A stretch of 64,000 bases of DNA from Chiloscyllium plagiosum (Eukaryota), in assembly GCF_004010195.1 (NCBI RefSeq), contig NC_057758.1, positions 3,313,881 through 3,377,880 of the forward strand. The letters run 5' to 3'. Shown here piece after piece: positions 10,759 through 39,230 of the stretch; position 1 is the first letter of the stretch; each line of letters starts with the position of its first letter. The notes beneath the pieces are model-generated. The model saw nothing but the letters and a program-made list of their open reading frames with translations, was not told the DNA's origin and made no database searches. Made by a program: the position numbers and the translations under genes.

Positions 10759-11289
10759 TTACCGCAGACAAGACACAGCTGACTCACTTTTGAGTGTTCA
10801 AGTATCTATTCTATTATAGAGTAGACATTGTATTACTGTAGATGCCATGCACTTTTCACACTGCTGAGTGTCCGTGTCTCAGTTAGTTTACACAGTGTAC
10901 ATTGTAATAATGTGCACAACACACTGTCTGAATAATTCTGAGTACCAGAATATCAGTCCTCCCACACTGTCGACATTGTATTACTGTACATTACATCTCC
11001 TTGTGCGTCTGAGATATCATATATTTAGGCATATTAATATGTGCGTGCGTGGGTGCACGAGCTTGTGAGAGAGTGTGTGTCTGTGTTTGTGTGTATGTAA
11101 TTTTGTATGTTTTTCTATGTATGCGACTATGTGTGATTGTGAATGCATCTGTGTTTTTGTGCAAATGTGTATGACTATATGTGTGTAGCTGTGCATGTGT
11201 ATGTATGTGATTCTGTACGTGCATGTCTGTGTGTGCCTGCGTGTGTGAATATATGAGGCGACGTGAGAGTGGGTTTCAATAAGTGTTTC

Positions 11290-11600
11290 TCTTTGTATGA
11301 GAGTGTCACTGTGCAGTCGTACATTCATCACCGAGTTCATGTGTGTTTCTGCAGACGTTTCGCTAGGTGAAATCATCAGTGCACCTCTGCGAATTGTTTC
11401 TGGTTTGTCTCGAATGGTATTTATGCGTTTGTGTTTTCTGTAACTTCTAGGTCTGTATCTGATTGGCTTGTACATTAGGTAGTGTTCAATACATTTATCG
11501 ATTCAGTTCTCGTTGGGGTGCCAGGCTTCAATGAATTCTGATGGGTGAGTCTATTTTGCCCGCAGTAGGATCTTACATTGTGCCATTTGAATTTGTGTCT
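11290..11600 (-). mobile_element. Penelope/Poseidon-like element 3' fragment (GIY-YIG C-terminus plus hammerhead remnant)
   Basis: Minus strand encodes HTDNERHKFKWHNV... followed by TGCA-CTGATGA-TTTCACCTAGC-GAAACGTC-TGCA at 11383-11350. Confidence 0.65.
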
Positions 11601-20000: not shown

Positions 20001-21957
20001 CATTAACATCATTGAAATGTGATCAGAATGAAAAACTCTGTGTTGTGGAATCAAGTTATCCCTGTGCCTGAATCGCAAATGGGGGCAGGAAAAGTAAGCA
20101 ATTGGGAAAAAAACATAGAACATAAAACAGTACGGCACAGGAACAGGCCATCCAGCCCACGATATAGTGCTGAAATAGGACACCAAATTAAACCAATCCC
20201 TTCTACCTGCCACTGGTCCAAAGTCTTCTATTCTTGCATGTTCATGTGCTTATGTAAACGTGCCTGCCTTGTTCCTACTTATTTGCCTCCACCAGGACCC
20301 TGGAAGCACGTCCCACACTCCTACAGCTCTCTGCGTAAATAAACGTGTCCCCCTCAAATCTGCTTGAAACTTTCCGCCTCTCATCTTATGCTTCCCCCAA
20401 TTTTAAACATTTCAACTCTGGGATAAATTGCTGACTATCAGCCATCTCTAAGCATTTTATAGCTTTCTGGACTTTTCTCGTCTCCCCTCAGCCTGCACCG
20501 GTCAGAGAAAACAACGCAAGTGGGTTTTTTTTGCATCTCCTTAAAGCTCATTTCCTCAAATCCAGGCAGCTTCCTGGTAAACTTTTTCTGTCCCCTTTCC
20601 AAAGCGTCCACATCATCCCTGTTATGTGGTGACTAGAAAGGTAGAATGTTCAGCATTTATTTTGAGGGAAACTTAACTCAAAAGTGTGGAGGCTACATCC
20701 TAGTTATACAAAGCACTGGAAAAATCACAGTATTGGCAGTTTGGCTGCTGACGAAATGTTAGTCAGAATAGGCTTGTTCCCGTTGGAGTTTTGAAAAGTT
20801 TTAAAACATAGAACTCCGAAAGATAAGTGTCAGTGTGCGCACTCAAAGCATGTTCCCTCATCCTATCATCAAAGCGGGGAGGTCAGCCTTGTTTAAAACA
20901 GACGTTCAGCAGACCTTGCCATGAGCAGGAACAAGCATATCGAGGAAAGGCAAGTACAGACTTGATGAAGAGACACCGATCCTGAATTCGTGACCCTAAC
21001 AGCGCCAGTAGCTTGTGGTTGACAGAGTTGAAGTATCCTCAAAGCAACAGTTGAGATTTAGGACATGCAAGTGTAAATGATGGCAGATAATTTAACTTGG
21101 AACTGAGGGATGGAGCTTGACAAATGTCACAATATGACGGAGCCCTTGCACATGGTGAAAGAAAAAATCTGAGTATGCGTAGATGTTTTCAGCTCGAGGT
21201 TTCTCGTGCCGATGTCATCTTGGCCTCCTGTCAGTCCACATGATACACATCAGCAATCTATCCCAGCTTCGGCGATGATTGCACAGGTTGCAGGAACCAG
21301 CTGCACCACTAGTGGTGCTGTTTCAATATATCAAAAGCACTGGCATTGATGTTCCTGTCTTCTCACATCCCGCCAGTCTGTTTTTGATCGTCAGCTAAGT
21401 GTTGGTAAATTGCCGTCAATGACACGCTCGCGGAGGCCCAGTCGGTGTTCCCCTTGGGCCATTAACACACATAACGTCAGGACAAACCTTATAGGATCTC
21501 AGCAGATTGGCAACATTTGTAGACAGAGAGGAAATCAGAGATAAAGTTTCATCTAAGTGCTATGGTGTGTCCTTAGACTATCACCAACACTTCCCCCACC
21601 CGATCTCAAGTTCTAGACGCCACCGTTCATTGCAAACATCCTTCTTATATGTACCCTGTACAGTCTTTTTCCGGCTCCAGCATGATTCTTCTTTAGGGCA
21701 GCACTTTTGGAAACTGAAGTATGGTTCACATTTCAAATCCAGAATGGTGTAAATATCCACAAGGATTCTGGCTGGCACAACTTTCTGTAACAAGGAATTC
21801 CAAAACACACAAACTTCGAGAGAAGCAAAACATTCCCATTTCAGTCTTTCATGGGTGTCCCTTAATTCCAAGACTGTGCTCCTCTATACATTGTCAAATG
21901 GTATGTGTGCTCTGCAACTCATGTATAATTTTCAGGTTTTGTTGCTCTTTCTCACAG

Positions 21958-22859
21958 TTAACATAATGGCGATTGCAATCCTCTCACGGGATCAATGTGG
22001 TCTATCCAAATGTGTTACCCAGTATCTGGTGTACATGGCAGTGGCGGATCTACTGGTCAACATTTTTGACCTGATTCTGAGGCATATTCCAATTGTTTAC
22101 GTGAAAGAATTTCAGTTTGTGAAGTCCCTCCCTCTTTGCAACATCCACACCGTTCTTGTCCATGCAGCCACGGACTGTTCTGTCTGGTTCACTGTTGCTT
22201 TCACCTTTGATCGATTTGTGGCCATCTGTTGCCAGAAACTGAAACGTAAATATTGCACGGAGAAAATTGCATCTGTCATTTTGGGAATAGTGACAATACT
22301 GAGCTGTTTAAAGAATATTTTTTGGTATTTTATGTTAACAGGTCAGTATCAGCTAAAGAACTTCCCTTGGTTTTGTGAGTTAAGATCGGGTCTTATATTA
22401 TCTAAATTCTGGGGAATAGTCGAAATCAGTCATCATCTTCTCACACCATGTTTGGCAATTCTTTTTACTGTTCTGTTCAATGCTTTATGTGTCAGACATC
22501 TCTTAATGGCCAACAGAGTCCGTGGGAGACTCCAGGCACTCAGCAGCAGGAACAACATCACAGAGCCAAAAATGGAGAATCGAAGAAAATCCCTAATTTT
22601 ACTGTTTTTCATCTCGGCCAACTTTGTACTGTCATGGGCAATCATTATGCTGTATTCAATATGGAACCGGGCGTGGCTATTGGGTCACAAGTTCATATTT
22701 CTGCATTATTTTGTGCGGGAAATTGGTTACATCTGCCAACTCACAAGTTACTGCACAAATATTTGTATTTATGCTGGGACATTGACCAAGTTCAGGAATC
22801 AGGTGATGGATGCATTCAAATATCCAATTCATCTGTTACTAAAATTGATTAATCAATGA
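21958..22859 (+). CDS. Coding exon 2 of the GPR139/GPR142-like GPCR (TM1 end to TM7 and C-terminus); spliced product 360 aa
   Basis: Polypyrimidine tract and CTCACAG acceptor ending at 21957. Open frame with TM2 MAVADLL, TM3 Cys (PLCN), SVWFTVAFTFDRFVAIC (DRF), ECL2 WFC, TM6 RRKSLILLFFISANFVLSW, TM7 CTNICIY and helix 8 KFRNQV. Stop TGA ends at 22859. Confidence 0.92.
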
Positions 22860-24672
22860 ATAACTGTTCAAAACAGAGAAACCATTTCCAAGTCAAGATC
22901 AGTGCAATTCACTTTCCCATGGTTTCAGAAAGAGAGACAAGATAAAGTTCATGAACGTACACTGGCAGGTGATATGCATGCATAATGGGGTCGGTCTATC
23001 TTCTTCCGGGTTCAGTGATAAACATACAGTGGCCTAAGTCTGTTCTCTCCTCTGGCTCAGTGTGATATGAACGGGGGAAAGGAGTCAGACAGGTGTCTCC
23101 CTGGGATCAGTGATGCGCACAGATTGAGTTCTCTCCACTTTTGTATCATTTTCAGTGACACACACACGTGGCTATCAGTACGTCTCTCAGCAGGGTCAGT
23201 AATACAAACGCAGGCGAGTTTGTGTGTAATCGCCCCGGGGTCCATCAGTTCACAGTGGGGTCCATCAGTTCACTCCCCGAGGTCAGTGATACACACACAG
23301 GGGTGTCTGCTGTCTTTCCCCGGGGACAGTGATACATATATAGTCGCGTCAGTCTGCATTTGTACCGGGCTCAGTGACACACATACAGTGGGATCATTGC
23401 TCTCCCCAGAGTCAGTGATATGCAGACATTGGCGTAAGTTTGCTCCCTCCGGGGTCGGTGAAACTGGTGTCAGCCTACAGTCTTCACTGGGGTCAGTCTG
23501 CTCTCTCACCGGGATCAATGATACACACACATTGAGGTCAGTTTGCTCCCTCTGCAAGGTCAGGAATGCACACGCCAAGGGGTCAGTGAGCTCTGACTGT
23601 TAATGATACGCTCACAGTTTGGTCATTCTGCTGCATTCCAGCTCTCAGTACTAAACACTCAGTGGGGTCAGTCTGCTCTGTGTCAGAGCCATTGGTACGC
23701 ACAGAGTGGGTCATTCTGCAGTGTCAAGGGCGCAAACATTTGGATCAGGGCAGAGATGATGAAGGGTTCCCACCCGAAACGTCGATTTTCCTGCTCCTCG
23801 GATGTGCCCGACCTGCTGTGCTTTTCCAGCATTACTCTAATCTTGACACATTAGGATCCGTCTGCTCTATTCCCACGGTCAGTGATGCACACATACAGAG
23901 GGTTCAATATGATCTCTCCTACGGGTCATTGTTGCACAACAGTATTTCTGCTGTCGCCCGGGCTGAGGGATAATACACCATAAGGTCAGTGTGCTCTCCC
24001 GAGAGTCAACAATACACACACAGTGGGGTCAATATACTCTCACCCCAGAGTCAGTGACACACACAAAAACAATGAAGTAAGTTCGCTCTCTCCTGCGGAT
24101 CAGTAATACACATATAGTGACATCATTGGGGAATTATCCCGGTGTCAGTAATGCTGATACACAGTGGGGTGAGTCTGCTTTACTTCCACGGTCAGGGATA
24201 AACATGCAATAGGATCAGCCTTCCCATCTCCCCAGATTCAGTGATAAATACAGAGCGGGGCAGTCTGGTCTCCCCACGGGTTCAGTGATATATACAGAGT
24301 GGAAAATATGTTGCTGGAAAAGCGCAGCAGGTCAGGCAGCATCCAGGGAACAGGAGAATCGACGTTTCGGGTATAAGCCCTTCTTCGATGATGTTCTGTC
24401 GATGGAGTCAGTGATATGTACCTATTGGGCTCAGACTGGTCTCTCTCTCTCTCTCTCTCTCTCTCTAAGTTTAGTGACATGCGCAGTGGGGTCCAGCATC
24501 TGCAGACCTCACTTTCTCCTCCTATATACAGAGTGGGCTGAGTCCGCACTCTCCCCAGCATCGGTAATCACACACAGTGTGGTCATTAGGCTTTCTCCTC
24601 GAGATCAGTGATGCACAAACAGTGGTATTATTCTGTTGTTCCCGAGGTCAATGATCTCTACACACACTGGAG

Positions 24673-24876
24673 GAGAAAGTGAGGTCTGCAGATGCTGGAG
24701 ATCAAAGTTGAAACTTTATTGCTGGAACAGCACAGCAGGTCAGGCAGCATCCAGGGAACAGGAGATTCGACGTTTCGGGCACAGGCCGAAGAAGGGCCTG
24801 TGCCCGAAACGTCGAATCTCCTGTTCCCTGGATGCTGCCTGACCTGCTGTGCTGTTCCAGCAATAAAGTTTCAACT
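24673..24876. mobile_element. Fold-back PLE derivative with perfect 82-bp inverted repeat and 15-bp TSD
   Basis: Arms 24706-24787 and 24795-24876 are exact reverse complements around the loop GAAGAAG. CTACACACACTGGAG at 24658-24672 and 24875-24889. Confidence 0.9.
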
Positions 24877-24904
24877 ACACACACTGGAGTCAACCTACCC
24901 TTAT

Positions 24905-25068
24905 GAGAAAGTGAGGACTGCAGATGCTGGAGATCAGAGCTGACAATGTGTTGCTGGAAAAGCGCAGCAGGTCAAGCAGCATGCAAGGAGCAGGAGAATC
25001 AACATTTTGGGCATGAGTCCTTCTTCAGGGATGATTCCTGAAGAAGAGCTCATGCCCGAAACGTCGAT
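24905..25068. mobile_element. Second fold-back PLE derivative with 15-bp TSD, directly adjacent to the first
   Basis: TCAACCTACCCTTAT at 24890-24904 and 25069-25083; hammerhead core CTGAAGAAGAGCTCATGCCCGAAACGTC from 25038. Confidence 0.85.
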
Positions 25069-25164
25069 TCAACCTACCCTTATCCAGGATCAGTGATGCA
25101 TGCACAATGGGGTGAGTTTGCTCTCTCGCCGAGTTCAACATGCACATATTGTGTATGTTGACCT

Positions 25165-28549: not shown

Positions 28550-31480
28550 GTAAGATGCTTGGGGTCTGTAATACCCAAAGTATAGTGAGGTTAGTCTGCT
28601 CCATTCTCGGAGTCAGTGAAGCACTGACAATTGGTTCAGGCTGCTCTATCCCCAGGGCCTGACATAGTTGCATCTTTCCGCTCTCCCCACGGGGTCAGTG
28701 ATCCACATGCAATGGGTTCATTTGGCTTGCTCTTCAGGATCAATTAAACATGCACATTGGTGTCAGTCTACCCTCTCACTGGTGTCAGTCTTACGCATGT
28801 GGTGGGGTCTTTCTGAACTCTCGTCCTGATCAGTTGTATCTACGCAGTGCTGTTAGTCTGTACTTTCACCTGTGTCAGTAATACACACAGAGTGAGTTTT
28901 TTTTTCTGATGTCTCTCCAGGGTCAGTAATACACAGGTACAAGGGTCAGTCTACTCTCTGTCCAAGATTATTGATACACTCACAGTTGGGGCAGTCTACT
29001 TTCTCCCTGGAATAGTTGACAGTCTGCTTTCTCCCCTGGGTCAATGATACACACTCAATAGGCTTCATCTCACCTCTCCATGGGGTCAGTGATACTCACA
29101 CAATGATGCCAGTCTGCTCTCCCCAGCATCAGTGATACACAGAGTTTGGTCTGCCTGCTTTCTTCCCAAGGTCAGCGACATCTACACATGGCAGTCAGTG
29201 TGCTGTCTCCTCTGAGTCAATGATAAAGACGCAATTGATTCAGCCTGTTCTCTCCTGGTGTCACACACAGTGGGTTCACCCTACTGTCTGCCTGGGGTCA
29301 GTGATACACGCCCAGTGGGCTCATTCTGCTCTCTCCTAGGGCGTCAATGATAAACACACAGTGGGGTCACTCTACTCTCTGTCTGGGGACAGATAAGTAC
29401 AAACACTCGGGTCAGTTTGCTCTCGAAAGGGGACAGTTGCACACACCAATTAGTGTTAGTCTGTCCTCTTCTCGGGGATCAATCATACATACACAGTGGG
29501 GTCAGTCCGCTCTATCCCTGGATCAGAGGTACATAAATATCACAATGGGGTCATTGTGCTCTGTCTCCAAAGTCAGTGATATACACACAGAGGGGTGAGA
29601 CTGCTCTCTCCCTGGGATCAGTGGTTGGGTAAGTCTGGTTTCTCCACTTAGTCAAAATACACACACAGATGCCTTCAGACAGGCCTCTCCCTGGGGTTAC
29701 TAACACACACAGGGGATTCAGTCTATTTTTTTCCCTGGGGTCCGAGATCCAGACTTGGGGTCACCAGTCTGGTCTCACCACCGGGTCAGTAATGCACACA
29801 CAGAGGGGTCAGTCTGCTATCTCCACGTAGACCATTATGTGCACGCAGTGGGCTAAGTCTGCACTCGCCCCAAGGTCAGTGATCCACACACAAAAGGGTC
29901 AGTCTGCTCTCTCCACAGGATCAGTGACACACACGCAGTGGTGTCAGTCAGCTCTGCCCCCACGGTTAGCGACGCACACGCAGTTGGGGTCAATTACATA
30001 CAAACAGTGGGGTCAATCTGCTCTTTCCTTGGGGTCAGTGAAAAACACACAGTGGGAACGCTCTACTGTCTGTCCGGGTACAGTGATGTCCAAACATTCG
30101 GGTCCGGGAGTTCTCATCAGGGGACAAAGTAGCATCAGTCTGCTCTCTTCCCAGAGTCTGTGATAAACACACAATGTGGTCAGTTCGCCCTGTCCCCGGG
30201 GTCAATGAACCAAACTCAGTGGAGTCATTCCACTCTCTCCCCGGGGTCAATGATGCATAATTATTGGGGTAAATGTGCTTTAGCCCTGAGTCAGTGATAT
30301 GCAGACAGGGGTGAGACTGCTCTCTCCCTGAGATCAGCGATACATTCACAGTTGGGTCAGTCTGTTCACTCCCTTGGTCAAGATACACACAAAGTGCCTT
30401 CTCACTGTTCTCTCCCCAGAGTTAGTGACACACAGACTATGGTTTCAGTCTATTTCACCCCGAGGTCAGAGATCAGTCTGCTCTCTCCACAGTGTCTGTA
30501 ATACACACACAGTGCGTTTAGTCTGCACTTGCCCCAGGGTCAGTTATGCGTGCACAGAGGGATCAGCTCACTCTCCCCACGAGATCTGTGACACACACAA
30601 ACACAATAGGGTCCATTAGCTCTCTCCCCGGGGGAGAGCACCACGCAAACAATGGGGTTAATCTGCTCTCTCGCTGGTGTCAGGCACACTCACAAAGTGG
30701 GGTCTGTCTGCTGTCTCCCAGGAGTCAAAGTATACACACATATATAAGGTTCAGTCTGCTATCTCCGCAGTTCAGTGATACTCGCCAGAGACAGTCACAT
30801 GCCAACAAAGGCGTCAGATTGCTTTCTCCCCAAAGTCGACAAGAAACATACAAGTTGGGTCAGTATGATCTGTCTTCGGAGCCAGTGATGTACACATAGT
30901 GCGTTATGTATGCATGTTTCGCAGAGAGAGTGATGCACACACAGATGGGTCAGTATGTTCTGCGCAGTGGGGTCTCTCTCTCTCTCTCTCTCTAAGTTTA
31001 GTGACATGCGCAGTGGGGTCCGTCTGCTCTCTCCACAGAGTCTGTGATGCACACAATGTGGAGTTAGTGTTTTCACTCACCGGGATCAAGACAAATGCAC
31101 ACACAGGGGTCAGTCTACTCTTTCCAGGTTCACGGATACCAAAAACAGTCGGGTCAGTCTGCTCTGTCACTGGAGTCATTGATACATGCACAAGGGAGTC
31201 GGTCTGCTTTCTCCCAAGAGGCAGTGAGAAAAATACAATGGGGTCAGTATGCTCTCTCCTCAGGGTGAGTGATGCACGCACATGGTGCATGGCTGCTCTC
31301 ACCTCCAAGCTGGTGATGCATTCACAGTGATGTCAGGGAGACTGATAGACACACAGTCTGGTCAGTCAGCTGTCTCCCCAGGCTTGGGGATGCACATACA
31401 GTAGGGACAGTCTGCTGTTGCCCAGGGCGAGTGGTATACAGACAAAATGGGTTGGTTCTCTCCCTCCCTGGGGTGAAAAT
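28550..31480 (+). repeat. Degenerate ~45-bp minisatellite array, right arm
   Basis: Same unit and orientation as 22975-25165; dozens of copies. Confidence 0.88.
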
Positions 31481-35591: not shown

Positions 35592-37255
35592 CCCGAATGG
35601 ATTACGGATCACAAACCCACTTAGGTCGACCTACAACACAGACTACGCAGAGAGACTTTGCCACCGCACCTCTCGTAAACTTCTCAATCATCTCGTGCAC
35701 CAACTCTACAGCAGGCCAAAAACTGGAGACGCTGGGCATTCTCACCAATAATAGCAAAGCCCGCCCTGGAACCACAGTAGACAACATTATCACTGTGGGG
35801 AAGTCTATTGTCAACTTATCGGACCACACCCTTCGACCGGAAGAGATTGAAGTCCTGAGTAGGGGTCTCAACTTCTGCCCCACCACCAAAATGGGCCCGT
35901 TGGATCTGGCAGCAGTCAGAGGAGTTCATCAGATGTATGAGACTCCGGGAATTCTTTCAAGGTGCCGGCATTGATCCCACTGATGAACTAGAACAGTCAT
36001 CACAGGGATCTGTAGAGGAGCGACCAAAGAAGGTGTCAACATGGACCCCACCGGAGGGCCGGAGTTCATCAGACGAATGAGACTCCGGGAATTCTTTCAA
36101 AGTGCCAGCAGTGATCCCACTGAGTCCACTGATGAACTAGAACAGTCATCACAGGAATCTGTAGAGGAGCGACCAAAGAAGGTGTCAACATGGACCCCAC
36201 CGGAAGGCCGCTGCCCTGGGCTTGACATGTATGCTCAAACTGTCAGGAAATATATAAATGCCAGATTCATCAGCCACACCCACAAGGTAGAGCAAAACAT
36301 CACCCGTTCACAACGCAATGCCATCCAGGCTCTCAAAACCAATGACAACATTGTCATCAAACCAGCAGATAAAGGAGGAGCCATTGTCATTCAGAATAGA
36401 ACAGATTACTGCAGGTAAGTGTACTGACAACTGAACAGCCAGGAACACTACAGGCAACTACCAGCTGATCCGACCAGAGAACACACCCATGAATTAAACA
36501 CACTGATCAGAACTTTGGATCCAATCCTTCAGAGTTCCCTACGCGCCCTCATCCGAAACTCAGCACCCGCGGGCCAGTCGAACCGGGAACGTTCCTCGTC
36601 ACAATGGATGTTTCCGCACTCTACACCAGCATCCCCCACAATGATGGCATCGCGGCAACTGCCAGTCTCCAAACACCATCCTATAACTCATCCGCTTTAT
36701 CCTCGATCATAATGTCTTCACCTTTGACAACCAATTCTTCATCCAGACACACGGAACAATCATGGGGACCAAATTTGCACCCCAATATGCCAACATTTTT
36801 ATGCACAGGTTCGAACAAGATTTCTTCTCTATGCAGGATCTCCAACCGACATTGTACACCAGGTACATTGATGACATTTTCTTCCTCTGGACCCATGGCG
36901 AGGAGTCACTGATAAAACTACACAGTGACATCAACAATTTTCATCCCACCATCAAACTCACCATGGACTACTCTCGACTGTCTGTCTCATTCTTGGACAC
37001 GTGCGTCTCCCTCAAGGACGGACACCTCAGCACCACACTCTACCGCAAACCCACAGACAACCTCACAATGCTACACTTCTCCATCTTCCACCCAAAACAT
37101 ATTAAAACAGCCATTCCCTATGGACAAGCCCTACGCATACACCAGAAACAAAAAAAAACACAATCACCTGATGAAGGAGCATCGCTCCGAAAGCTAGTGT
37201 GCTTCCAATTAAACCTGTTGGACTATAACCTGGTGTTGTGTGATTTTTAACTCTT
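35592..37255 (+). mobile_element. Penelope-like retroelement, internally deleted (RT pseudogene plus hammerhead-bearing tail)
   Basis: PLE motifs IVNLSD...VLSRGLNFCP, IVIKPADKGGAIVI, MDVSALYTSIPH, GTKFAPQYANIFM, YTRYIDDIFFLW, FLD, LYRKPTD; frameshifts; tail with hammerhead at 37165-37199. Confidence 0.92.
37165..37199 (+). ncRNA. Minimal type I hammerhead ribozyme motif, AGCU family, intact core
   Basis: CAC-CTGATGA-A-GGAGC-ATC-GCTCC-GAAAG-CTA-GTG: helix I CAC/GTG, helix II GGAGC/GCTCC, palindromic AGCT helix III, predicted cleavage after CUA. Confidence 0.7.
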
Positions 37256-37773
37256 TAGTAAACAACAGCTCCCGCGCTCGACAATTTCTTCCCTGCCTGA
37301 CCAATACATAGTTATCAAGTAGCTGGTCCTTGAATAAACTCCACATTTCAATTGCGCACATCCCCTGAAGGTTCCTTTCCCACCCTATGCATCCTAATTA
37401 CATGGCAATTGCCTTCCCCCCAGCTATAACTCTAGCCCTGCGGCATATACCAATCCCATTCCATCACTAAAGTAAACATAACCGAATTATGGTCACCTAC
37501 CTCCAAATCTAACACCTGGTCCGGTTCACTACCCAGTACCAATGTTACCTCGCCCTTTGTTGGCCTATCTACATACATACATAGACTACACCTCCTCCCA
37601 CCCTGCCCCCTGTAAAAATGCAATTCCATATTCCCAATTCCTTCGTCTCTGCCGCATCTGCTCCCAGGAGGACCAGTTCCAATACCGAACAACCCAGATG
37701 GCCTCCTTCTTCAAAGACCGCAATTTCCCCCCAGACGTGATCAACGATGCTCTCCACCGCATCTCCTCCACTT

Positions 37774-38422
37774 NNNNNNNNNNNNNNNNNNNNNNNNNNN
37801 NNNNNNNNNNNNNNNNNNNNNNNNNNNNNNNNNNNNNNNNNNNNNNNNNNNNNNNNNNNNNNNNNNNNNNNNNNNNNNNNNNNNNNNNNNNNNNNNNNNN
37901 NNNNNNNNNNNNNNNNNNNNNNNNNNNNNNNNNNNNNNNNNNNNNNNNNNNNNNNNNNNNNNNNNNNNNNNNNNNNNNNNNNNNNNNNNNNNNNNNNNNN
38001 NNNNNNNNNNNNNNNNNNNNNNNNNNNNNNNNNNNNNNNNNNNNNNNNNNNNNNNNNNNNNNNNNNNNNNNNNNNNNNNNNNNNNNNNNNNNNNNNNNNN
38101 NNNNNNNNNNNNNNNNNNNNNNNNNNNNNNNNNNNNNNNNNNNNNNNNNNNNNNNNNNNNNNNNNNNNNNNNNNNNNNNNNNNNNNNNNNNNNNNNNNNN
38201 NNNNNNNNNNNNNNNNNNNNNNNNNNNNNNNNNNNNNNNNNNNNNNNNNNNNNNNNNNNNNNNNNNNNNNNNNNNNNNNNNNNNNNNNNNNNNNNNNNNN
38301 NNNNNNNNNNNNNNNNNNNNNNNNNNNNNNNNNNNNNNNNNNNNNNNNNNNNNNNNNNNNNNNNNNNNNNNNNNNNNNNNNNNNNNNNNNNNNNNNNNNN
38401 NNNNNNNNNNNNNNNNNNNNNN
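37774..38422. other. Assembly gap (N run)
   Basis: Run of n. Confidence 1.
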
Positions 38423-38471
38423 AGTCCCTCCTCCCTACCTTTTATCTTAGCCTGCTGGGCACACTTTCCTC

Positions 38472-38507
38472 ATTCCTGAAGAAGGGGTCATGCCCGAAAC
38501 GTCGATT
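38472..38507 (+). ncRNA. Minimal type I hammerhead ribozyme motif, ACGU family
   Basis: ATTC-CTGAAGA-A-GGGGTCATGCCC-GAAAC-GTC-GATT: complete core, predicted GUC cleavage triplet, short helix I with one mismatch. Confidence 0.65.
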
Positions 38508-39230
38508 CTCCTGCTCCTTGGATGCTGCCTGACCTGCTGCGCTTTTCCAGCAACACACTTTCAGCTATCTACATACTGTGTCAGGAAACCCTCCTACACA
38601 CACTGAACAAAAACTGACCCATCTAAAGTACTTGAGGGGTTGCTCCCCCTTCCCCTCAAGGATAACAAAAACACAATAAGAGACATCACGAAGCCTGGCA
38701 CGTGGGAGGCAACACACCAACCATGAGTATTTCTCATTCTCGGAGGAACTCCTATCTGTCCCCTTAACTATGGAGTCTCAATGACTAATGCTCGGCTCCT
38801 CTTCCACCTTCCCTTCTGAGAAACCGGAACAGAATCTGTGCTAGAGACCTGTACATCATGGTTTACCCCTGATCAGTCCCCGCACCACCCCCCTCCCGCC
38901 CAATCGCTGTGGGCCAAGAAGGGAGTGGGATATCATTGCAGACAGAGCAAAGAGACAAGATGGGAAATAGTGGGACAGTTGCAAAACAGCACATGAGAAG
39001 AGAAGGAGAGAAATGGAGAAGAACTGAGAGTAAAGAATGAAGAGATTTTAGCTCGGCAAATGATGCAGGGCAAGGAGAGTTGTATTTCGCATGGGTATTG
39101 ATACAGGGCTATGGTGTGAGAGCGGGACATTGGGATAATTTTGGGAATGATACAGGGACAGGACGGGTAATGAGATTAGCTTGGAGACTGACACAGGAAT
39201 GTGAGAAACAAACAGGATAAACTCACTCAC

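What the first reader, a model, noticed from the sequence alone, without database searches (positions are those of the whole stretch)
38472..38507. Second hammerhead family (ACGU palindrome, GUC triplet) shows covariation with the first
Seen: AUUC CUGAAGA A GGG(G)UCAU(G)CCC GAAAC GUC GAUU; the copy at 24806-24817 has GAAU, which pairs fully. Compared with the AGCU family, helix I (AUUC/GAAU vs CAC/GUG), helix II (GGGC/GCCC vs GGAGC/GCUCC) and helix III (AC-GU vs AG-CU) all change while keeping base pairing and the CUGANGA/GAAA core. Inference: this within-window covariation is strong evidence for a selected RNA structure.
Basis: partly seen in the sequence, partly recalled or inferred. Interest (0 to 1): 0.7.

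Follow-up and report, generated by a model that had tools for sequence, protein, structure and literature searches.

The report
Shark Penelope retrotransposon's minimal hammerhead motif
This is a mutated, likely inactive copy of a tiny RNA motif predicted to cut itself (a hammerhead), sitting in the end repeat of a very abundant Penelope-type jumping gene; its base pairs do change in step across the genome's families, but that is a published property of such elements.

Summary
The motif at 38472-38507 is real. It is the minimal hammerhead in the end repeat (pLTR) of a Penelope-like retroelement (PLE); a 30-base pattern has 63,365 exact genomic matches. The fully paired helix I joins arms from two different copies: the 24806 copy has lost its own 5' arm and the CU of the core. 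This family usually has a U·U mismatch there (the facing base pairs in 14 of 88 copies), and this copy also has G·G in helix II. Two families alone give weak support (18 of 20 cells paired, p about 0.03). Seven genomic families give strong support (64 of 70; shuffle mean 40.9), including a U3-A8 core swap. Copies decay at CpG even at core G12, so selection likely acted on the source elements. Such covariation is published (PMC4209133), and this scan found it before on other DNA of this genome. Following an earlier scan lead, I confirmed U6 fusions exactly at the predicted cut (6 of 6 and 2 of 2 pattern hits), indirect evidence of cutting in cells.

The parts
38472..38507 (+). Minimal type I hammerhead motif, ACGU family. 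Helix I 5' arm 38472-38475; CUGAAGA 38476-38482; extra A 38483; helix II 38484-38495 (G38487 breaks pair 4); GAAA 38496-38499; palindrome ACGU 38499-38502; C17 38503; predicted cut 38503/38504; helix I 3' arm 38504-38507 (U·U at pair 3)
38423..38566 (+). pLTR (end repeat) of the PLE that carries the motif; 85-97% identical to the pLTRs of the five PLE loci compared
38440..38447 (+). TATA-like TTTTATCT about 31 nt before the first A of helix I; inferred promoter box (not tested)
   Evidence: TTTATC at -31 in 32 of 60 copies that keep the upstream part
37578..37773 (+). 5'-truncated PLE ORF piece (region downstream of the RT core); followed by the assembly gap 37774-38422, then the pLTR
24673..24874 (.). 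Fold-back insertion of the GAAU subfamily (two inverted pLTR tails) between 15-bp direct repeats (24658-24672, 24875-24889); its + arm starts at 24788 and lacks AUUC and C3/U4
24905..25068 (.). Second fold-back insertion of the ACGU family between 15-bp direct repeats (24890-24904, 25069-25083); hammerhead at 25034-25069 with G10.2 read as A
37165..37199 (+). AGCU-family hammerhead (CAC/GUG, GGAGC/GCUCC), the comparison family, after its own PLE RT fragment
35987..37145 (+). Broken RT fragment of the AGCU-family PLE (RVT_1 E 1.8e-5, below Pfam cut-off; 37% identical to the ACGU-family RT over 154 aa)

Best explanation
The motif is the minimal hammerhead in the end repeat (pLTR) of a very abundant Penelope-like retrotransposon family; its paired shape was likely kept by selection on the active source elements, while this copy is a mutated, likely inactive relic. 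Transcription of the element is inferred to start at the first A of AUUC, about 31 nt after a TATA-like box, so the 5' arm of helix I would be the first four bases of the RNA. The motif is predicted to cut after GUC (38503/38504) only when two copies pair through the ACGU palindrome, perhaps helped by the element's protein. Cutting was likely partial: most genomic copies read through the site, so they came from uncut or rejoined RNA, while rare cut 5'-OH ends were likely ligated to U6 and copied into the genome.
For: Shown, link to a PLE: 26 of the 30 best genomic relatives of the ORF piece at 37581-37772 (the window's own locus included) have this hammerhead 0.5-1 kb downstream. Related ORFs carry RVT_1 (E 6e-8, over cut-off) and GIY-YIG (E 0.0022, under cut-off). 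Shown, pairing: seven families, 64 of 70 cells paired against a shuffle mean of 40.9; helix I 20 of 21, slid controls 6 and 4, and 1 of 5040 arm permutations reaches it. The U3-A8 sister family has 1,178 exact matches; the first 100 listed are 93 U3/A8, 7 C3/A8, 0 with G8. Shown, decay of copies: CpG sites differ in 10-19% of 88 copies, including core G12 (17 of 88), against 2-9% for non-CpG guanines. Shown, copy ends: 25 of 169 tail-anchored copies start 31-32 nt upstream of the cut (the A of AUUC), against 2.1 per position in between, and 3 start at the cut +/-1. Shown, U6: 6 of 6 pattern hits for this family group join at the predicted cut out of 31 allowed offsets, 0 join upstream, one more at L127, and 2 of 2 for the AGCU family. 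Literature: RtcB joins U6 2',3'-cyclic phosphate to 5'-OH RNA (PMC6789731, passages); an anole PLE hammerhead cuts only with protein added (PMC11167929).
Against: No cleavage was assayed. Helix I of this family is weak: the hammerhead fold scores -2.1 kcal/mol for this copy against a competing fold of -5.4, and the lowest-energy fold of the subfamily majority does not form helix I. None of the 7 U6 fusions has the tail of the finding's own young subfamily; all have tails of sister subfamilies. The seven families are not independent (three share a tail, three others are related), and with three rows per test only 1 of 6 permutations is possible. Loci of the other families were fetched with patterns that fix part of helix II. 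The start site is inferred, not mapped; an extra G before AUUC, reported by earlier scan notes as a cap trace, was not enriched here (10 of 56). In the anole element cleavage was not needed for insertion in vitro and no RNA-seq reads ended at the cut (PMC11167929).
Confidence: 0.85

Rival explanations
1. The fold is selected in source elements but mainly as a non-catalytic structure (protein-binding or promoter-proximal signal); cleavage is incidental or absent.
For: Most copies read through the cut site (3 of 169 start there). U·U in helix I is kept in most subfamilies. Cleavage was dispensable in vitro for the anole PLE (PMC11167929), and Naiad PLEs spread without canonical hammerheads (PMC8557442, passages).
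Against: The 3:8 core pair changes on both sides in a whole family, as expected for a catalytic core pair. U6 fusions fall on the predicted bond in 9 of 9 junctions seen, in two families with different sequences.
Confidence: 0.1
2. The two-family pairing is chance or independent origin of short hairpins, with no selection on RNA structure.
For: The two families do not align outside the core and the pairwise test is weak (p about 0.03). Core conservation is imposed by the search descriptor.
Against: Helix I, whose arms are about 30 nt apart and were not both fixed by any search pattern, is paired in 20 of 21 cells. Three families with an alignable tail still show 5 further pair types (29 of 30 cells, p 0.013).
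Confidence: 0.03
3. This particular copy is a host-selected, working ribozyme.
For: It keeps every core base.
Against: It has a G·G break in helix II and U·U in helix I, lies in an ordinary truncated PLE insertion, and copies of the family decay at CpG regardless of function.
Confidence: 0.02

Closest known systems
Minimal hammerheads (min-HHR) in pLTRs of metazoan Penelope-like elements (Cervera and de la Pena 2014, PMC4209133; parts 1-2 of 4 of the main text read, two supplement files searched, file 1 not searchable)
   Same: [quoted passage not shown]
   Different: Sharks are not named in the parts read or in the supplement files searched. Copy number here is far higher (63,365 exact for one pattern; the paper gives about 4,000 and 9,000 for coelacanth and Xenopus). 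Helix II is 4 bp and helix I carries a fixed U·U mismatch in this family.
Hammerhead of the Poseidon PLE of Anolis carolinensis (Frangieh et al. 2024, PMC11167929; parts 1-2 of 4 read)
   Same: pLTR hammerhead upstream of an internal start of reverse transcription; genomic copies read through the cut; optional short tail at copy ends.
   Different: That element is Penelope/Poseidon and was assayed (protein-assisted cleavage). This family has a CX4CxxC linker before GIY-YIG (L105), which PMC8557442 (passages) says Penelope/Poseidon lack, so it is Neptune-like. No assay here.
U6/LINE-1 chimeric pseudogenes made by RtcB ligation (Moldovan et al. 2019, PMC6789731; passages read)
   Same: U6 ending in five U joined directly to a retroelement RNA, then retrotransposed.
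   Different: Here the partner is a PLE and the junction is at one fixed bond, the predicted hammerhead cut; 'Penelope' does not occur in that paper.
Non-LTR retrozymes of animals (bioRxiv 10.64898/2026.07.22.740005; part 1 of 5 and passages read)
   Same: Type I hammerhead related to PLE pLTRs; reported in one chondrichthyan genome.
   Different: Retrozymes are tandem arrays with a hammerhead in each unit; this copy is a single pLTR at the end of an ORF fragment, and no tandem repeat covers it.

Membership tests
min-HHR of metazoan PLEs | CUGANGA and GAAA-N-N-UH core, type I layout | tested here: met
min-HHR of metazoan PLEs | Extra base between positions 9 and 10.1; G10.1-C11.1 pair | tested here: met
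   A in 88 of 88 copies; G-C majority
min-HHR of metazoan PLEs | No loop 3; self-complementary 15.2-16.2 for dimer pairing | tested here: met
   ACGU; predicted duplex -1.7 kcal/mol
min-HHR of metazoan PLEs | Short helix I of about 4-5 bp closing the motif | tested here: inconclusive
   3 of 4 pairs with U·U in this subfamily; 4 of 4 in the GAAU subfamily
min-HHR of metazoan PLEs | Self-cleavage as a dimer | not testable with these tools
   Only indirect: U6 junctions at the predicted bond
Penelope-like elements (EN+) | RT followed by a C-terminal GIY-YIG endonuclease in one ORF, ending in the pLTR | tested here: met
   RVT_1 over cut-off in L109, GIY-YIG E 0.0022 (under cut-off) in L110; both 89-94% identical to the window's ORF piece; pLTR downstream in 26 of 30
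Penelope-like elements (EN+) | 5'-truncated, partial-tandem and inverted copies with pLTRs | tested here: met
Neptune clade | CX2-5CxxC linker before the endonuclease | tested here: met
   CX4CxxC in L105; criterion from PMC8557442
Neptune clade | Placement in an RT tree with reference PLEs | not tested
   No reference PLE proteins were fetched
Non-LTR retrozymes | Tandem units each with a hammerhead, no ORF | tested here: not met
   No tandem array at this place; an ORF piece lies upstream

The most novel reading that the evidence does not exclude
In these shark PLEs the hammerhead is a cap-proximal switch: its 5' arm is the first four bases of the messenger RNA, so dimer cleavage removes the capped 32-nt leader. 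The genome keeps a record of both states, many copies of uncut RNA that end at the first A, and U6 fusions joined to the cut 5'-OH end. The U6 fusions would be in-vivo evidence that PLE minimal hammerheads cut in the germ line even with a U·U mismatch in helix I.
Probability: 0.55. Interest if true: 0.55.

Novelty: new member of a known kind. Interest (0 to 1): 0.27.

Why it matters
As filed, little: covarying minimal hammerheads in PLE end repeats are published, and this copy is a damaged relic. The useful part is indirect. Whether these weak ribozymes cut in animal cells is open (PMC4209133 says in-vivo evidence is absent; PMC11167929 found no reads ending at the cut). This genome offers several high-copy families with natural compensatory variants and U6 junctions at the predicted bond, which makes the question testable. 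Those side results were first noted by earlier scan reports and were reproduced here.

Tried and rejected
Rfam scan of the window at gathering thresholds: 0 matches. Sequencing runs: no RNA holder listed. Laying reads: a polyA single-cell run (X19, labelled with an organism not shown to be this one; about 2% read) gave no pile of molecule ends in either lay, and X20 laid nothing; this library type cannot map cut ends, so it is no evidence either way. The best-supported loose ends in those lays include the A of AUUC (38472; L009:1534), matching the genomic copy ends, but only 18 rows per lay were shown. Extra G before AUUC as a cap trace: not enriched (G 10, A 10, T 10, C 26 of 56; 3 of 41 in the cruder); rejected for this family in my sample. 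First boundary script gave 21 copies at the cut; these were register errors, since gapped alignment gives 2. MAFFT alignment of nine natural copies did not put helix II in register and was not used for pair counts. R-scape was not available; column shuffles, slid controls and arm permutations were used instead. Link of the U3-A8 family to an ORF: tblastn hits in only 3 of 25 loci, two of them in inverted position; left open. The MER6/SINE literature search gave nothing that I followed up. Lunse et al. (PMC5785218) is not held; only its title was seen in a reference list.

Full report
Observation. The window is G000:C49:3313881-3377880 of a 3.56-Gb genome; that it is a shark is my recall from its repeats, not a tool result. 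The motif is not chance: a core descriptor without any pairing demand gave 55 hits in 543 kb against 4 in the reversed sequence, and a 30-base family pattern has 63,365 exact matches against 0 for its control. Rfam gave no match at gathering thresholds.

The 24806 copy is one arm of a fold-back insertion between 15-bp direct repeats. It starts at 24788 and has neither AUUC nor C3/U4, so 'AUUC/GAAU' joins two copies. That pairing is real in the GAAU subfamily elsewhere (12 copies), but the finding's own subfamily has AUUC/GAUU with U·U at pair 3. In 88 complete copies taken from 1.107 Mb of arbitrarily placed regions, including the window (198 tail hits, 169 kept as this family type, 88 reaching the whole motif), the facing base is U 62, A 14, C 12. 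This copy also has G at 38487 where 82 of 88 have C. Between the ACGU and AGCU families 4 of 10 scored positions are unchanged, 4 are compensatory and 2 are mismatched in one family: 18 of 20 cells, p about 0.03. Their RTs are 37% identical and their pLTRs do not align.

What it is. The motif lies in a 144-bp repeat (38423-38566) that follows an ORF piece (37578-37773) across an assembly gap. Of the 30 best genomic matches to that piece (150 scored of 36,373 candidates), 26 have the same hammerhead 0.5-1 kb downstream; 4 have none within 1.5 kb. Longer relatives carry RVT_1 (E 6e-8) and GIY-YIG (E 0.0022, under cut-off) and a CX4CxxC linker. This is the pLTR of an EN+ Penelope-like element, Neptune-like by the linker criterion of PMC8557442 (passages); no tree was built. 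The AGCU hammerhead at 37165-37199 follows another PLE's RT fragment.

Covariation tested more widely. I collected descriptor hits from all loci held, assigned families by tail motifs outside the helices, and took majorities (hits that fitted no rule were left out; rows rest on 3-93 copies). Seven families give 64 of 70 cells paired with 18 further pair types, shuffle mean 40.9, p < 1e-4. Helix I pairs 1-3 alone give 20 of 21, slid controls 6 and 4, and 1 of 5040 arm permutations reaches it. The three families that share an alignable tail give 29 of 30, p 0.013. One of them has U3-A8 in place of C3-G8: 1,178 exact matches, of the first 100 listed 93 U3/A8, 7 C3/A8, none with G8; at least one C3 is a fold-back junction (L227). 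Limits: the families are related in groups, core conservation is imposed by the descriptor, and the patterns used to fetch extra loci fix part of helix II. R-scape was not available.

Where selection acted. CpG positions differ in 10-19% of the 88 copies, including core G12 (17 of 88), against 2-9% for non-CpG guanines. Inserted copies therefore decay without regard to function, and the compensatory changes are fixed family traits, so selection is inferred to have acted on source elements. This copy's hammerhead fold scores -2.1 kcal/mol against -5.4 for a competing fold, and -7.1 for a GAAU copy; it is likely inactive.

How it likely works. Of 169 tail-anchored copies, 25 start 31-32 nt upstream of the predicted cut, at the A of AUUC, against 2.1 per position in between; 3 start at the cut +/-1 and 36 run on 55 nt or more (both arms of fold-backs are counted, and several at 31 are fold-back junctions). 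A TATA-like TTTATC lies at -31 in 32 of 60 copies that keep the upstream part, and TATAAA at -31 to -35 in two other families. I infer that transcription starts at AUUC and that most copies came from uncut or rejoined RNA, in line with the anole element (PMC11167929, parts 1-2 read). An extra G before AUUC was not enriched (10 of 56). Following earlier scan notes, I tested U6 fusions: 2 of the 30 U6 loci inspected (of 48 scored) run into this family's tail at the cut; a pattern allowing 31 offsets gave 6 of 6 at the cut (one is the same locus as, so 7 loci in all), none joined upstream, and 2 of 2 for the AGCU family. There is no microhomology at the junctions. RtcB joins U6 to 5'-OH RNA (PMC6789731, passages), so these likely record cut RNA. 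All 7 have the GAUU arm, but all belong to sister subfamilies, none to the finding's own. No cleavage was assayed.

Comparison and novelty. PMC4209133 (parts 1-2 of 4 read) describes the same motif, the extra base, the palindrome, covarying consensus families and the U3-A8 variant. Sharks are not named in the parts read or in two supplement files; file 1 could not be searched and may hold shark examples. A search for shark, Penelope and hammerhead ribozyme listed one review, seen as a listing only. A search on U6 chimeras (15 of 29 listed) and term look-ups in two of those papers found no mention of Penelope; this is a limited check in open-access text. PMC6765202 (passages) restates the dimer model. 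bioRxiv 10.64898/2026.07.22.740005 (part 1 and passages) reports retrozymes in one chondrichthyan; its supplements were not seen. This scan has reported these families, their covariation, the U3-A8 family and the U6 fusions before on other DNA of this genome.

Verdict. A new member of a known kind; observation partly confirmed; interpretation right in outcome but overstated on the evidence given. Interest 0.27.

Noticed in passing
G000 loci L127, L151-L156, L327, L328: U6 snRNA copies fused to PLE pLTR tails exactly at the predicted hammerhead cut, in two families (lead from earlier scan notes, reproduced).
   Followed up: yes
L217-L241: Sister family with U3-A8 core, AGCU/AGCU helix I and a G·U pair in helix II; at least 1,178 copies.
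   Followed up: partly
window 21753-22859 (+): Uninterrupted 368-aa frame matching 7tm_1 (E 1.7e-11): a rhodopsin-family receptor gene or pseudogene.
   Followed up: no
window 35600-37200 (+): The AGCU-family RT fragment stops shortly after the RT domain and is joined through an A-rich linker to the start of its pLTR, a 3'-truncated ORF followed by the pLTR start.
   Followed up: no
window 11017-11379 (-): A third PLE-type family copy whose hammerhead has lost part of helix II.
   Followed up: partly
window 22980-24060 and 28580-31430: Degenerate 45-bp satellite-like repeats; the two fold-back PLE insertions at 24.7-25.1 kb sit in similar sequence.
   Followed up: no
window 24658-25083: Two adjacent fold-back pLTR insertions from different subfamilies, each with its own 15-bp direct repeat.
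   Followed up: partly
L267-L296: An abundant family group (18,671 pattern matches) keeps an A·G or G·G mismatch inside helix II, and another has G·U at 10.1-11.1.
   Followed up: no
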